Source: a virus (lineage: Duplodnaviria > Heunggongvirae > Uroviricota > Caudoviricetes). Taken from it: 64,000 nucleotides of DNA. The notes beneath the pieces are model-generated. The model was given only the letters and a program-made list of their open reading frames with translations, did not search any database and was not told the DNA's origin. The translations under genes were made by a program, and so were the position numbers. Positions 3,469 to 6,239 of the stretch are shown piece after piece (position 1 is the first letter of the stretch; the number at the start of each line of letters is the position of its first letter). The stretch is taken from IMG/VR virus record IMGVR_UViG_2706794662_000007. One strand, 5' to 3'.

Positions 3469-3828
3469 TCAACCTTTCTTCATTAACTCGCGTTTAATTT
3501 CATCGGTACGCATCGTGACATCGGCAGCAGTGATCGCCTCGTTAAGCTTCACGATGTCCTCGATTTCCTGCGGTGACTTCTCTGCCAGATGGAAAATAGC
3601 AGCACGAATCACATCAGAGCGGGTGAATTTCTCGAAGCGAGGGATGAACTTCATCATCTCCAGCAGTTCGAAGTATTCGTCCTCCAGTGACATTGTGCGG
3701 CTTTTAATTTTCTCTTTGCCACGAGTCGGGCGTCCCTGTGGTCTGACTGGTTGGCGCAAAGGAGTTGTGTTCTTAGCCGGTGCATCAGACTCTTTGCGCT
3801 TTGCTAGGTCACCCATTTTCATGGACAT
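3469..3828 (-). CDS. small partition partner candidate (ParG/ribbon-helix-helix-like DNA-binding protein)
   Basis: 119 aa, basic N-terminus, start overlaps parA stop (ATGA-type junction at 3828). Confidence 0.35.
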   Translation of the reverse strand: MSMKMGDLAKRKESDAPAKNTTPLRQPVRPQGRPTRGKEKIKSRTMSLEDEYFELLEMMKFIPRFEKFTRSDVIRAAIFHLAEKSPQEIEDIVKLNEAITAADVTMRTDEIKRELMKKG

Positions 3829-4496
3829 TATTCTTCTTCCTCCAGACTCAACAGATAATCTACAAATTCTTCAAACTCGGCTTCCGCCTTTTTGTCGCGC
3901 TCGCTACCGGTCATTTCAAAGATAGAACGACCAGACTCTTCCGCATCATCATAGACGTTGCGGTTATATAGATTGACTGGCGCAGACTCGATGCCAAACG
4001 TCTCAACAATCTCTTTAGCCGCCAGAATGCGAGACACTTGTGATGGCAAAGCCGGGCACTGGTTCATGACCGCGCGGACCTTCACTTTATCGTTTACATT
4101 GCGAACATTGTCGATAATAGGATCGATGTCACGTAAAGATTTCAAATCACGACGCTTAGGACGCAGCGGGATAATGATAACGTCAGCCATCAGCATCGCT
4201 TGTCGCTGAATTTCGGAGTCGAAGCCACCAGCATCTACCACTACAAACTCAGCTCTACCCTGAAGCGATTTTAGGTGCTTAATGATGTCATCCTGAACGT
4301 ATGCAAAAGGAATCAGCTCAAGGTCTTCGTTCTGTCGACGGTCTTCACACCAGCTCGTTGTCGTGCGCTGAATATCTATATCGGTAATATAAACCTTCTT
4401 CTTCTTTTTGACTTTCAGGCAAACGGCAATTTGCTGGGCAACGGTGGATTTGCCAGGCCCGCCCTTTGTGCCGCCAACCACAAAGATCTTGGTCAT
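3828..4496 (-). CDS. parA: ParA/ParF-type partition ATPase
   Basis: deviant Walker A GGTKGGPGKST at N-terminus; 222 aa. Confidence 0.8.
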   Translation of the reverse strand: MTKIFVVGGTKGGPGKSTVAQQIAVCLKVKKKKKVYITDIDIQRTTTSWCEDRRQNEDLELIPFAYVQDDIIKHLKSLQGRAEFVVVDAGGFDSEIQRQAMLMADVIIIPLRPKRRDLKSLRDIDPIIDNVRNVNDKVKVRAVMNQCPALPSQVSRILAAKEIVETFGIESAPVNLYNRNVYDDAEESGRSIFEMTGSERDKKAEAEFEEFVDYLLSLEEEE

Positions 4497-4530
4497 TGGA
4501 GAGTTTCCTTTGCGTCTATTATTATTGTCT

Positions 4531-4549
4531 GAAACAACTTGTTTTCTTA
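4531..4549. promoter_or_regulatory. family-1 palindromic motif copy (GAAACAACTTGTTTTCTTA) ~35 nt upstream of parA
   Basis: recurrent motif; candidate operator or partition-operon control site. Confidence 0.5.
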
Positions 4550-4630
4550 TATGTGATATAGCCTAAATGCCTACGGCTGCTGTGTAAAGGTTTAATGATA
4601 GGTACATAGATTTGGTAAGGACTTAATAAC

Positions 4631-4650
4631 AAAAAACCCGCCGTAGCGGG
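4631..4650 (-). terminator. rho-independent terminator after 258-aa gene
   Basis: hairpin CCCGCCGTAGCGGG with A-run on plus strand (U-tract on minus). Confidence 0.55.
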
Positions 4651-4658
4651 TTTAGGAA

Positions 4659-5435
4659 TTAGTGGTTGGTAGACCTGGCATCAAATGTTGTAACGCCCAC
4701 TTCAATGTGGCGGTCTTCTTTGGAGATGATGGTGAGAATCTGACTAGATGGGTCTATGCTGACAGCCATAGGGTTCCAGTGACGTAACTGAGCCTCGCTG
4801 TTCAATAGCAGCGCATCCCACGGTTTGACGCCATTCTGCCCAATACCACCTTCAACAAGGACATCTATAAATTCTTTATTTAAATTGTCATAGATTTGGA
4901 CACGACCGACCAAAAGCATACCTACAGCCCAAATTCTGGCACCGTAAACCGTCTGATGGTCATCACATACTACATGGTCATGCCAATTGAGAAGAAAATT
5001 GTAAACTCTTCTAGCAAGTCCCTTTTGTTCCTTTGAAGGGGTTACAAATGCCCCTTTAATCTGGACCCCAAGGTGAGAGCCTTTTTGTGAGCGAAACTGG
5101 AATCGTTTGTAGACGAACCTGGCGATCTGAATGCCGTCATCATCTTCTTGCTCATCACCAACTAATTCACGAACACTATGAACTATCTCTTCTTCTGAAT
5201 GCCCCTGCTCGTCAAGATCCATTGCATGTTCTTGAAGCCAATCTGCATCAGGGTCGCCTACAAATGACACTGTCAAACAGTAATCATAATTAGACCCGAT
5301 CAAGGACCACTCTGTGAGCCGTAAAACAGAAAAATCAGAGTTAACCATGTAGCCAACTCTGATTTTCTCTCTTGCTTCACATTCAGGGAAATCAGACAGT
5401 ACTTTTGAATACTCTGCTATGAATGATGGTGACAT
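4659..5435 (-). CDS. hypothetical protein, 258 aa (acidic central region)
   Basis: ORF track; abuts next ORF with 1-nt gap. Confidence 0.5.
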   Translation of the reverse strand: MSPSFIAEYSKVLSDFPECEAREKIRVGYMVNSDFSVLRLTEWSLIGSNYDYCLTVSFVGDPDADWLQEHAMDLDEQGHSEEEIVHSVRELVGDEQEDDDGIQIARFVYKRFQFRSQKGSHLGVQIKGAFVTPSKEQKGLARRVYNFLLNWHDHVVCDDHQTVYGARIWAVGMLLVGRVQIYDNLNKEFIDVLVEGGIGQNGVKPWDALLLNSEAQLRHWNPMAVSIDPSSQILTIISKEDRHIEVGVTTFDARSTNH

Positions 5436-5834
5436 TTAGTTAGCAAGCCGCATATCCGTAGATGAATCCAGTTTCGCTATTTTAACATCTACGCGGTATT
5501 TATCTTTGATAAATTTAGCTATTTTGCTTTCAATCTCATAGAAAGCATCCTGTTCACAACGCACAACATCGGGAAACTGTTTTTCTGGCTTAACAAGAAA
5601 ACGTAACCGATTGTTGAGCACCATCATTTCTGCAAACAATTTGATGGTAAACTTGCCTTCTTCAACGTCACTTTTAAGGTTAACGATGAAACGCTGATCC
5701 TTAAGCATACCCGGTTTGTTCATTTCACGAATTTGGAGCGAGTCATTCCAATGCCGCAACGGAACCGATGCGATCATCTTGGTACAGTCTCTTATCGTCT
5801 GAATAGAACGAGATGCGTTAAGCGCAGTATGCAT
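5436..5834 (-). CDS. hypothetical protein, 132 aa
   Basis: ORF track; translationally coupled to 4659-5435. Confidence 0.45.
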   Translation of the reverse strand: MHTALNASRSIQTIRDCTKMIASVPLRHWNDSLQIREMNKPGMLKDQRFIVNLKSDVEEGKFTIKLFAEMMVLNNRLRFLVKPEKQFPDVVRCEQDAFYEIESKIAKFIKDKYRVDVKIAKLDSSTDMRLAN

Positions 5835-6008
5835 GTTTCCACCTTAGCCGGTAATAACTTTATGTCATAGCGGCGACCTTGTCGGTTTAGAGGCTACGAG
5901 TATGCGTCGATTTATTAAAACAAGGTATGATTTACTTGACATCCATGCTTCAAATCTACCTTGTGCTCTAATAATATGCAAATTTTATGTTAGAAAATTC
6001 CGCTTTTA

Positions 6009-6239
6009 TTATGGCACTTTTCTGCCCCATCCACACAATCGCTCCCCTATCATATTGTGAAAAAGTACTTCCCTTTCAGTCTCTTCGGTCATGAGATCAT
6101 CACGGCTGATGTATAGCGGTGTAGCCGCATCGCAGAAAAGCACACCAGAGGATTGAGGCTTAATCACGCAACCACTTATTGTGCAACTCATGATGAACAG
6201 TAGAAGCATCTTTGCGCCGTAACTCATCAAGTGTTTCAT
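6009..6239 (-). CDS. o-spanin candidate (Rz1-like lipoprotein), start partly embedded in i-spanin gene
   Basis: signal peptide with lipobox ISGC (MKHLMSYGAKMLLLFIMSCTISGC); start taken at internal Met of 6009..6317 ORF. Confidence 0.4.
   Translation of the reverse strand: MKHLMSYGAKMLLLFIMSCTISGCVIKPQSSGVLFCDAATPLYISRDDLMTEETEREVLFHNMIGERLCGWGRKVP

What the first reader, a model, noticed from the sequence alone, without database searches (positions are those of the whole stretch)
4659..5834. Two-gene cassette of unknown function downstream of parA
A 258-aa acidic protein and a 132-aa protein are translationally coupled, with their own terminator at 4631-4650. Pairs in this position next to partition loci are commonly addiction or defence modules, but no toxin-antitoxin signature is evident.
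Basis: inference. Interest (0 to 1): 0.4.

Follow-up and report, generated by a model that had tools for sequence, protein, structure and literature searches.

The report
Mobile two-gene GNAT-fold module, TA-like
A self-contained two-gene unit in a Shigella/E. coli phage-plasmid encodes a small basic protein and a very divergent acetyltransferase-fold protein; it sits in the same slot where sister plasmids carry a classical acetyltransferase toxin-antitoxin pair, so it is probably an undescribed addiction or defence module.

Summary
The two ORFs are real. They lie on the minus strand: orfS 5834..5436 (132 aa, pI 9.5) and orfL 5435..4659 (258 aa, pI 5.0). They are joined as TAA-ATG and end at a terminator at 4653..4634.

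The window is an SSU5-type phage-plasmid, 100% identical over the cassette to a Shigella sonnei plasmid. The cassette (4604-6026) is a discrete replaceable unit between the lysis genes and parA. Among 79 related phage-plasmid loci:
- 30 carry this pair, never one gene alone.
- 42 carry a canonical TacA/GNAT-toxin pair.
- 5 carry other ORFs.
- 2 are empty.

The pair also occurs as an isolated two-gene island between unrelated housekeeping genes in Erwinia and Pectobacterium, and in a Pantoea conjugative element.

- **orfS:** an orphan family. Solo copies occur in several other phages; orfL was never found alone.
- **Leader:** a promoter and a structured 5' leader that appears to sequester the ribosome-binding site are conserved. 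No Rfam family matches.

Best reading (about 0.45): a new toxin-antitoxin-like addiction or defence module. Toxicity is untested.

The parts
5953..5981 (-). Putative sigma-70 promoter of the cassette: -35 TTGCAT (5981..5976), 17-nt spacer, -10 TAGATT (5958..5953)
   Evidence: It is a weak consensus match and was not listed by the scan. A TTGNNN-17-TA(G/A/T)NTT motif nevertheless sits at a fixed distance (-71 to -83) upstream of the leader box in 14 of 14 distinct upstream regions from different hosts and contexts. Function as a promoter is inferred.
5835..5907 (-). Conserved structured 5' leader. Invariant box GCAUACUCGUAGCC, hairpin P1, hairpin P2 (GCCG...CGGC), then invariant GGCUAAGGUGGAAAC containing the Shine-Dalgarno sequence (5846..5839). 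The outer helix pairs GUAGCCUCU with GGUGGAAAC.
   Evidence: Alignments A7 and A9. RNAalifold consensus. 98% of cells paired against 34-55% with slid partners, and 4 pairs show compensatory changes. Covariance model R1 hits the 64-kb window only here (85.7 bits) and also hits an unseen locus, L100 (87 bits). No Rfam family matches. The leader is 64-86% identical in nucleotides where the coding DNA is 51-64% identical. Single-sequence folding energy is not exceptional.
5436..5834 (-). orfS: 132-aa basic protein (pI 9.45), an orphan family with the invariant N-terminal motif R-S-I-Q-T-I-R-D-x-T. Proposed neutralising or regulatory partner.
4659..5435 (-). orfL: 258-aa acidic protein (pI 4.96) with a predicted GNAT (acyl-CoA N-acyltransferase) fold. 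Proposed effector.
5330..5367 (-). Strong hairpin (12-bp perfect arms, about -20 kcal/mol) inside the 5' coding part of orfL, followed by a T-rich stretch
   Evidence: Flagged as terminator-like. A comparably strong hairpin lies in the first 150 nt of orfL in 8 of 12 diverse homologues, where it is the strongest in the gene. Its role, possibly lowering orfL relative to orfS expression, is inferred.
4624..4653 (-). Intrinsic terminator of the cassette: stem-loop 4653..4634 plus T-run
   Evidence: It is also conserved in SSU5, where homology with the window runs to 4654.
4604..6026 (.). The replaceable accessory slot: the whole cassette as an exchange unit between parA and the Rz/Rz1 lysis genes
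   Evidence: Homology between the window and sister phage-plasmids with other slot contents (TacAT type, 403-aa ORF, empty) stops at 4602-4605 and resumes at 6027-6033 in every case.
5076..5107 (+). Protospacer: exact 32-nt match to a spacer in the type I-E CRISPR array of E. coli SC418
   Evidence: The adjacent trinucleotide is GTG.

Best explanation
Window 4604-6026 is an autonomous, horizontally mobile two-gene operon, a 'moron' with its own promoter, leader and terminator. It sits in the accessory slot between the lysis genes and parAB of an SSU5-type phage-plasmid.

Proposed mechanism:
- A conserved promoter drives an mRNA whose roughly 110-nt leader folds into a three-way structure. That structure sequesters the Shine-Dalgarno sequence of orfS and so limits expression.
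- orfL has no ribosome-binding site of its own and is translated by coupling to orfS.
- OrfL is a very divergent, acidic GNAT-fold protein that most likely uses an acyl-CoA to modify a cellular target, and it is the effector.
- OrfS is a basic protein of a new family that acts as its cognate neutraliser and/or regulator.
- Together they work like a type II toxin-antitoxin module. They stabilise the plasmid prophage (post-segregational killing) and/or abort infection by other phages, as the TacA/TacT-type pair in the same slot of sister elements is presumed to do.

What is shown: gene structure, strict pairing, autonomy and mobility, slot alternation, GNAT fold, and conservation of the leader.

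What is inferred: acyl transfer, toxicity, neutralisation by OrfS, the regulatory role of the leader, and the biological role.
For: (1) Discrete exchange unit. Homology with sister phage-plasmids breaks at 4603 and 6027 whatever fills the slot.

(2) Mutually exclusive slot contents in 79 loci with ParA at least 89% identical: 30 orfS+orfL, 42 TacA (PF08681, 6e-26) plus a GNAT toxin (Acetyltransf_1/7), 3+2 other ORFs, 2 empty. Phage Cyrano annotates its pair as KacT toxin and antitoxin.

(3) Autonomy. The same small-then-large pair, with a 16-nt overlap, is an isolated island in several unrelated sites:
- between an mglC-like gene and the malic enzyme gene (Erwinia sp.);
- between rsmI and ygiD (P. 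colocasium);
- between tldD and aaeR (P. brasiliense);
- between rep and gppA (E. pyrifoliae);
- in a Pantoea conjugative element;
- in integrase-flanked islands next to Zeta and AHH toxins.

(4) Strict co-occurrence out to the most distant orfL homologues. Upstream partners match the orfS profile at 5e-20 and 3e-17. Every leader hit with enough downstream sequence has both genes.

(5) Asymmetry typical of antitoxin and toxin. Solo orfS homologues occur in phage D6/RCS47, PhiR12 phages, prophages and a large phage-like contig. No solo orfL was seen in about 45 loci.

(7) Tight expression control. There is a conserved promoter, a leader that sequesters the Shine-Dalgarno sequence and shows covariation, and no SD for orfL.
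Against: - No toxicity, stability or defence phenotype is known or testable here.
- OrfL is uniformly acidic (family median pI 4.88). The tRNA-acetylating GNAT toxin in the alternative slot has pI 8.7, so the TacT mechanism is unlikely to apply unchanged.
- By my manual alignment of the motif after beta5, the position of the usual GNAT alpha4 tyrosine holds a near-invariant Trp (W169), so catalysis is uncertain.
- There is no significant sequence similarity to KacT (hhalign probability 0.4%), and OrfS is unrelated to TacA.
- PADLOC gives no hit. A published DefenseFinder v1.3.0 screen reported no defence system in the closely related S. sonnei pWPMR2-like plasmids (bioRxiv 10.1101/2025.09.12.675607). 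This is expected for an undescribed system but gives no support.
- Basic small plus acidic large is the reverse of the commonest antitoxin/toxin charge pattern.
Confidence: 0.45

Rival explanations
1. Counter-defence or host-modifying module. OrfL is a phage/plasmid acyltransferase that modifies and inactivates a host defence or other host protein, as the GNAT anti-CRISPR AcrVA5 does to Cas12a (from my own knowledge). OrfS is its regulator or chaperone. The module is not toxic.
For: It is carried by a temperate phage-plasmid as a moron. It has a GNAT fold. The protein is acidic. orfS homologues are widespread in other phages.
Against: Isolated chromosomal copies between housekeeping genes, outside any mobile element, are hard to explain for an anti-defence gene. 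The slot alternates with a TA pair, not with known anti-defence genes. Solo orfS without the enzyme would then have no obvious purpose.
Confidence: 0.17
2. Reversed or enzymatic-antitoxin polarity (type VII-like). The small basic OrfS is the harmful, nucleic-acid-binding component, and the acidic GNAT-fold OrfL neutralises it, possibly by acylating it.
For: The charge pattern fits: basic small, acidic large. The first gene would be the toxin, as in hicAB, higBA and mqsRA (from my own knowledge). The predicted alpha-beta-beta-beta-alpha core of OrfS is compatible with an RNA-binding fold, though the model is of low confidence.
Against: Solo orfS homologues with an intact N-terminal motif persist in at least four phage types without orfL, which a toxin should not tolerate. 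orfL was never found alone, whereas a free antitoxin should be tolerated.
Confidence: 0.12
3. Com/Mom-like nucleic-acid modification module. OrfL is a GNAT-fold enzyme that modifies DNA or RNA (Mu Mom also has this fold). OrfS is a translational activator acting on a structured mRNA, giving protection from restriction.
Against: Mom ranks only 56th. OrfS has no conserved Cys or zinc-finger motif. The structured element precedes orfS, not orfL. Chromosomal islands and alternation with TacAT are not expected for an anti-restriction gene.
Confidence: 0.08
4. Neutral or niche accessory enzyme, for example detoxification or metabolite acylation, with a dedicated regulator. There is no addiction or immunity role.
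Against: The strict two-gene mobility, tight translational control, location in an addiction slot and solo orfS copies in phages are not typical of metabolic genes. The family is small: 49 clusters among 1.84 billion representatives.
Confidence: 0.13

Closest known systems
GNAT/DUF1778 type II toxin-antitoxin systems (TacAT, KacAT, AtaRT, ItaRT, GmvAT)
   Different: - The partner is not a DUF1778/RHH protein.
- OrfL is 258 aa rather than about 175, with extra N- and C-terminal parts, and is acidic (pI 5.0 against 8.7).
- OrfL has no Pfam GNAT hit, and hhalign to KacT is not significant.
- The usual alpha4 Tyr position appears to hold Trp.
- The pair has a conserved structured RNA leader, which as far as I know is not described for TacAT systems.
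- The orientation in the slot is opposite.
GNAT (Gcn5-related N-acetyltransferase) superfamily enzymes, e.g. M. tuberculosis Rv0802c (2vzy)
   Different: 12% identity or less. The window protein has no significant sequence match. The first motif A position is Glu instead of Gln or Arg. Donor and acceptor are unknown.
Phage Mu com-mom
   Same: A small upstream gene coupled to a potentially harmful GNAT-fold modification enzyme, with translation held back by an mRNA structure.
Phage-encoded orphan antitoxins or antitoxin mimics (e.g. T4 Dmd, from my own knowledge)
   Same: Solo orfS homologues without orfL occur in D6/RCS47, PhiR12 phages, prophages and a large phage-like contig. Phages that carry a neutraliser against a host toxin-type defence would give this pattern.
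   Different: No evidence that these solo proteins neutralise OrfL. They lack the leader.

Membership tests
GNAT acyl-CoA N-acyltransferase superfamily | Mixed alpha/beta GNAT core fold | tested here: met
GNAT acyl-CoA N-acyltransferase superfamily | Motif A (Q/R-x-x-G-x-G/A) between beta4 and alpha3 | tested here: inconclusive
   The window protein has E136-Q-K-G139-L-A141. G-x-A is present but the first position is Glu. G139 is kept in roughly 60% of family members (A6). The distant member P0086 has the canonical R-G-R-G-L-A.
GNAT acyl-CoA N-acyltransferase superfamily | Significant sequence match to a GNAT profile | tested here: not met
   No Pfam or NCBIfam hit for the window protein at E up to 0.1 and 1. 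A profile search of PDB gives only E 0.1-0.7 to GNATs. Only the distant family member P0086 passes Acetyltransf_1 (25.2 bits against a cut-off of 20.7).
GNAT acyl-CoA N-acyltransferase superfamily | Acyl-CoA binding and transfer activity | not testable with these tools
   Needs biochemistry.
GNAT/DUF1778 (TacAT/KacAT/AtaRT) type II TA | Antitoxin with DUF1778/TacA ribbon-helix-helix domain | tested here: not met
   orfS has no Pfam hit. hhalign of the orfS family against the slot TacA gives probability 0.5%. The predicted topology is not RHH.
GNAT/DUF1778 (TacAT/KacAT/AtaRT) type II TA | Compact (about 160-180 aa), basic GNAT toxin recognisable by sequence | tested here: not met
   258 aa, pI 4.96, family median 4.88. 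hhalign against Cyrano KacT is not significant.
GNAT/DUF1778 (TacAT/KacAT/AtaRT) type II TA | Acetylation of aminoacyl-tRNA, with toxicity neutralised by the partner | not testable with these tools
   Needs expression and LC-MS experiments.
Type II toxin-antitoxin modules in general | Adjacent, co-oriented, co-transcribed small genes with coupled or overlapping translation | tested here: met
   TAA-ATG junction in the window. 16-nt overlap (29 nt in L102) in most other copies looked at; in L101 and L103 the genes are adjacent with a 23-35 nt gap. One promoter and one terminator.
Type II toxin-antitoxin modules in general | Autonomous, patchy distribution in unrelated genomic contexts and mobile elements | tested here: met
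   At least nine distinct contexts. It behaves as an exchangeable cassette in the phage-plasmid slot.
Type II toxin-antitoxin modules in general | Orphan antitoxins tolerated, orphan toxins not | tested here: met
   Solo orfS in four phage or prophage types. No solo orfL in about 45 loci. The sample is limited.
Type II toxin-antitoxin modules in general | Toxicity of one component, relieved by the other | not testable with these tools
   Needs experiments.
Catalogued anti-phage defence systems (PADLOC-DB v2.0.0) | Match to a model of a known or candidate defence protein | tested here: not met
   No hit at E up to 1 for either protein. DefenseFinder v1.3.0 reported no system in pWPMR2-like S. 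sonnei phage-plasmids.
Mu Com/Mom | Zinc-finger Com activator and Mom-type GNAT-like enzyme | tested here: not met
Any Rfam RNA family (for the leader) | Match to a curated covariance model | tested here: not met
   cmscan of 4500-6100 at E up to 10 gives no hit over 5835-5946.

The most novel reading that the evidence does not exclude
This is a previously undescribed family of toxin-antitoxin / abortive-infection modules. Its features would be:
- an acidic GNAT-fold acyltransferase effector that does not target tRNA, with a new target class;
- an antitoxin with a new fold;
- a dedicated, highly conserved structured RNA leader (a new cis-regulatory RNA, possibly the binding site of OrfS) that controls expression;
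- counter-measures in temperate and large phages (D6, RCS47, PhiR12 and others), which have captured orphan orfS copies.
Probability: 0.25. Interest if true: 0.75.

Novelty: new variant of a known kind. Interest (0 to 1): 0.58.

Why it matters
SSU5-type phage-plasmids are common in clinical Enterobacterales.
- The exact small protein is recorded on at least 1000 contigs, and the source names it from Shigella sonnei.
- A Klebsiella variant is indexed in more than 4600 assembly blocks.
- 187 PLSDB plasmids carry related cassettes.

These elements persist stably and carry resistance genes, yet published screens report no defence or addiction system in the S. sonnei lineage. If this pair is the maintenance or immunity module of those plasmids, three things follow:
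- It would explain their stability.
- It would add a new effector/neutraliser pair to the GNAT toxin theme.
- It would provide a compact system of two genes and one RNA leader for studying how translation of a harmful enzyme is gated.

The hypothesis can be tested directly with standard expression, plasmid-loss and phage-challenge assays.

Tried and rejected
- **Sequence searches with no result.** Pfam, NCBIfam, PADLOC and PDB gave nothing for either window protein. Profile searches against PDB gave nothing significant.
- **Direct homology to the TacAT pair.** hhalign of the orfL family against Cyrano KacT, and of the orfS family against the slot TacA, was not significant. Direct homology to the TacAT pair is therefore rejected.
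- **Viral structure library.** Foldseek of the orfL model against viral structures gave no hit at E 0.001 or better. The afdb50 library was unavailable.
- **Collection scans with the leader pattern.** One true hit among 15 in genome contigs; the other 14 look like chance matches. In viral and metagenome contigs, every hit that has an orfS homologue downstream and enough sequence beyond it also has orfL. The rest are unrelated and include one recurring moss-metagenome element.
- **The search for related loci** with the broad orfS alignment failed because no stretch was conserved enough.
- **Single-sequence folding of the leader** is not more stable than shuffles (z -0.2 and -1.1). The window-specific alternative pairing UCGUAGC/GCUAUGA is not conserved in other variants and was dropped.
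- **A leaderless-mRNA promoter** reading inside the leader (ATGACA-16-TAAGGT) was considered and rejected because it is not conserved in Pectobacterium or Erwinia.
- **Literature searches** found no description of the pair.

Full report
**1. The observation**

Two ORFs lie on the minus strand of the window: orfS at 5834..5436 (132 aa) and orfL at 5435..4659 (258 aa). The TAA stop of orfS abuts the ATG of orfL, and orfL has no Shine-Dalgarno sequence of its own. OrfL is acidic (pI 4.96) and OrfS is basic (pI 9.45). An intrinsic terminator follows orfL: stem-loop 4653..4634 with a T-run. One point needs correcting: in the direction of transcription the cassette lies upstream of parA (4496..3828) and is insulated from it by the terminator.

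**2. The element**

The window is an SSU5-type phage-plasmid.
- Region 4400-6100 is 98.5% identical to Escherichia phage PhiR41_1.
- Region 4630-6010 is 100% identical to Shigella sonnei plasmid LR213459.1, 108 kb.
- The neighbours on one side are holin, endolysin and Rz/Rz1. On the other side are ParA, a 119-aa partner, and replication genes.

**3. A replaceable slot**

Only PhiR41_1 shares the cassette at the nucleotide level among phage records. SSU5, Cyrano and CMS-2020a match only the parA flank. Phage Cyrano carries a KacT-type toxin and its antitoxin in the same place, on the other strand.

I collected 80 IMG/VR loci encoding a ParA at least 89% identical and delimited the slot between Rz and parA in 79 of them. 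The contents were:

| Slot content | Loci |
|---|---|
| orfS + orfL (always both; several variants only 30-48% identical in protein to the window's) | 30 |
| TacA (PF08681, 6e-26) + 173-179 aa GNAT toxin (Acetyltransf_1/7) | 42 |
| 397-403 aa ORF | 3 |
| 183 aa ORF | 2 |
| empty | 2 |

Whatever the content, homology with the window stops at 4602-4605 and resumes at 6027-6033. The exchange unit is therefore window 4604-6026: promoter, leader, both genes and terminator.

**4. Autonomy of the pair**

The same small-then-large pair, with a 16-nt overlap, occurs as an isolated two-gene island in several unrelated places:
- between an ABC permease gene and the malic enzyme gene in Erwinia sp.;
- between rsmI and ygiD in Pectobacterium colocasium;
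- between tldD and aaeR in P. brasiliense;
- between rep and gppA in E. pyrifoliae;
- inside a Pantoea conjugative element;
- in very common Klebsiella SSU5-like plasmids.

An exhaustive profile search found only 49 clusters of orfL relatives among 1.84 billion representatives, all about 240 aa. Four distant relatives that I looked up each have an adjacent upstream gene of 111-132 aa. Three of these match the orfS profile (1.5e-52, 5e-20, 3e-17). Two of the four loci lie in integrase-flanked islands next to Zeta or AHH toxins.

In contrast, orfS homologues occur alone in:
- phage D6 (orf106) and RCS47;
- PhiR12 phages;
- a prophage early region next to hot, phd and doc;
- a 245-kb phage-like contig.

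I saw no orfL without orfS in about 45 loci.

**5. The proteins**

Neither protein hits Pfam, NCBIfam, PADLOC or PDB sequences.

OrfL:
- The AlphaFold model built from 18 homologues has pLDDT 74.9 and pTM 0.74.
- Residues 124-145 (VQIKGAFVTPSKEQKGLARRVY) resemble the beta4-alpha3 motif A.
- Q125 and D158 are invariant across the 39 aligned family members. Y145, Q161, W169 and W206 are nearly invariant.
- One distant member, P0086, shares the family motifs and also passes the Pfam Acetyltransf_1 threshold. It links the family to GNATs by sequence.
- hhalign against Cyrano KacT is not significant.
- The family is uniformly acidic (median pI 4.88). The TacT in the alternative slot has pI 8.7.
- By my manual alignment, the usual alpha4 tyrosine position holds W169.

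I conclude that OrfL has a GNAT fold but is not a member of the TacT/KacT family. Its substrate is unlikely to be tRNA.

OrfS:
- It belongs to an orphan family of 109 clusters restricted to Enterobacterales.
- It has an invariant N-terminal R-S-I-Q-T-I-R-D-x-T motif.
- It has no Pfam, PDB or TacA similarity.

**6. The leader**

Upstream regions from eight contexts align.

Promoter. A TTGNNN-17-TAGATT motif sits at a fixed distance from the leader box in 14 of 14 distinct sequences. In the window the -35 is at 5981..5976 and the -10 at 5958..5953.

Conserved core. It runs 5907..5835 and consists of:
- an invariant GCAUACUCGUAGCC box;
- hairpin P1, whose stem covaries (ACC/GGT, CCCC/GGGG, CUUCC/GGAAG, AUCCC/GGGAU);
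- hairpin P2 (GCCG/CGGC, changing to GCUG/CAGC in Pectobacterium);
- an invariant GGCUAAGGUGGAAAC-AUG.

Structure. RNAalifold pairs GUAGCCUCU with GGUGGAAAC, which would sequester the Shine-Dalgarno sequence. On 14 distinct sequences, 98% of cells are paired against 34-55% with slid partners, and four pairs carry compensatory changes.

Specificity. A covariance model hits the 64-kb window only at this site. It also hits an unseen locus (L100), but not the TacAT-type phage Cyrano locus, the solo-orfS loci or the most distant modules. No Rfam family matches.

Conservation. The leader is 64-86% identical in nucleotides where the coding DNA is 51-64% identical. In distant plasmids the leader and the first codons of orfS are the only part detectable by blastn.

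Caveat. Single-sequence folding energy is unremarkable. The evidence for structure is comparative and moderate. The two invariant boxes suggest recognition by a protein or the ribosome, beyond simple pairing.

Internal hairpin. A further strong hairpin lies in the first 150 nt of orfL in 8 of 12 variants, at 5367..5330 in the window. It may lower orfL relative to orfS expression.

**7. Interpretation**

The shown facts are:
- an autonomous bicistronic unit;
- strict pairing;
- patchy, mobile distribution;
- a location next to a partition locus, in a slot that otherwise holds a GNAT toxin-antitoxin pair;
- an effector-sized protein with the GNAT fold;
- tight translational control;
- orphan copies of the small gene only.

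These fit a toxin-antitoxin-like addiction or abortive-infection module with OrfL as effector and OrfS as neutraliser or regulator.

The inferred steps are acyl transfer, toxicity, neutralisation, and the biological role.

The main counter-arguments are the acidic nature of OrfL, the uncertain catalytic residues, and the complete absence of phenotype data.

The rival readings are listed separately with the results that would discriminate between them:
- a counter-defence acyltransferase;
- reversed or enzymatic-antitoxin polarity;
- a Com/Mom-like modification module;
- a neutral accessory enzyme.

**8. Novelty**

I found no description of the pair in the literature searched. A large DefenseFinder survey reports no defence system in the closely related S. 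sonnei plasmids. I rate it a new variant of a known kind: a TA-like module on the GNAT theme with a new partner, a non-canonical effector and a new RNA leader. It is of moderate to good interest because it is abundant in clinical phage-plasmids and directly testable.

Noticed in passing
window 5835-5981 (- strand): A conserved promoter plus a structured 5' leader that appears to sequester the Shine-Dalgarno sequence. It has two invariant boxes (GCAUACUCGUAGCC and GGCUAAGGUGGAAAC), is specific to this module and is absent from Rfam. The leader is more conserved than the coding DNA. This is a candidate new cis-regulatory RNA.
   Followed up: yes
window 5330-5367 (- strand); the first 150 nt of orfL in L010, L022, L025, L100-L103: A strong hairpin (about -19 to -22 kcal/mol in 45 nt) recurs early in the orfL coding region in 8 of 12 diverse variants, in a poorly conserved protein segment. 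It could be an attenuator or a site that sets the orfS:orfL ratio.
   Followed up: partly
L186 3501-3851 (phage D6 orf106); L187 360-701 (PhiR12_1); L015-L018 6001-6354; L185 4001-4339: Solo orfS homologues without orfL and without the leader, in P1/D6-type phage-plasmids, lambdoid phages or prophages (next to hot, humD, phd-doc), and a 245-kb phage-like contig with nucleotide-metabolism genes. They may be captured neutralisers.
   Followed up: partly
window 5076-5107; L188 402-433: A 32-nt spacer in the type I-E CRISPR array of E. coli SC418 (NZ_LR778147.1) matches orfL exactly. The adjacent trinucleotide in the window is GTG.
   Followed up: partly
L151 and L153 (slot, 397-403 aa ORF); L173 and L177 (slot, 183 aa ORF): Two further alternative occupants of the same slot have no Pfam or PADLOC hit. 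They may be additional uncharacterised addiction or defence genes.
   Followed up: partly
L004 7190-7380 and 8845-9110: In Erwinia sp. the chromosomal two-gene island is flanked by direct repeats of roughly 170 nt from an intergenic repeat element. This hints at how the module was inserted.
   Followed up: no
L066, L067, L076, L089, L090, L093, L096, L099: Metagenome contigs, which I take from the sample accessions to be moss-associated, share a conserved sequence: ACTCGTAGCCATAGATAAGAATCGTGGC...GGGCTAAGGTGGCTACGAAAGTAAG. It matched the leader search pattern, but no orfS or orfL lies downstream. It could be an unrelated structured element or a chance match.
   Followed up: no
window 3469-3828 (- strand): The 119-aa ORF directly after parA (phrog_5111, no Pfam hit) is annotated 'RelE/ParE putative toxin' in phage Cyrano (CYRAN_29). 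By position it is more likely the centromere-binding partner of ParA. The annotation looks doubtful.
   Followed up: no
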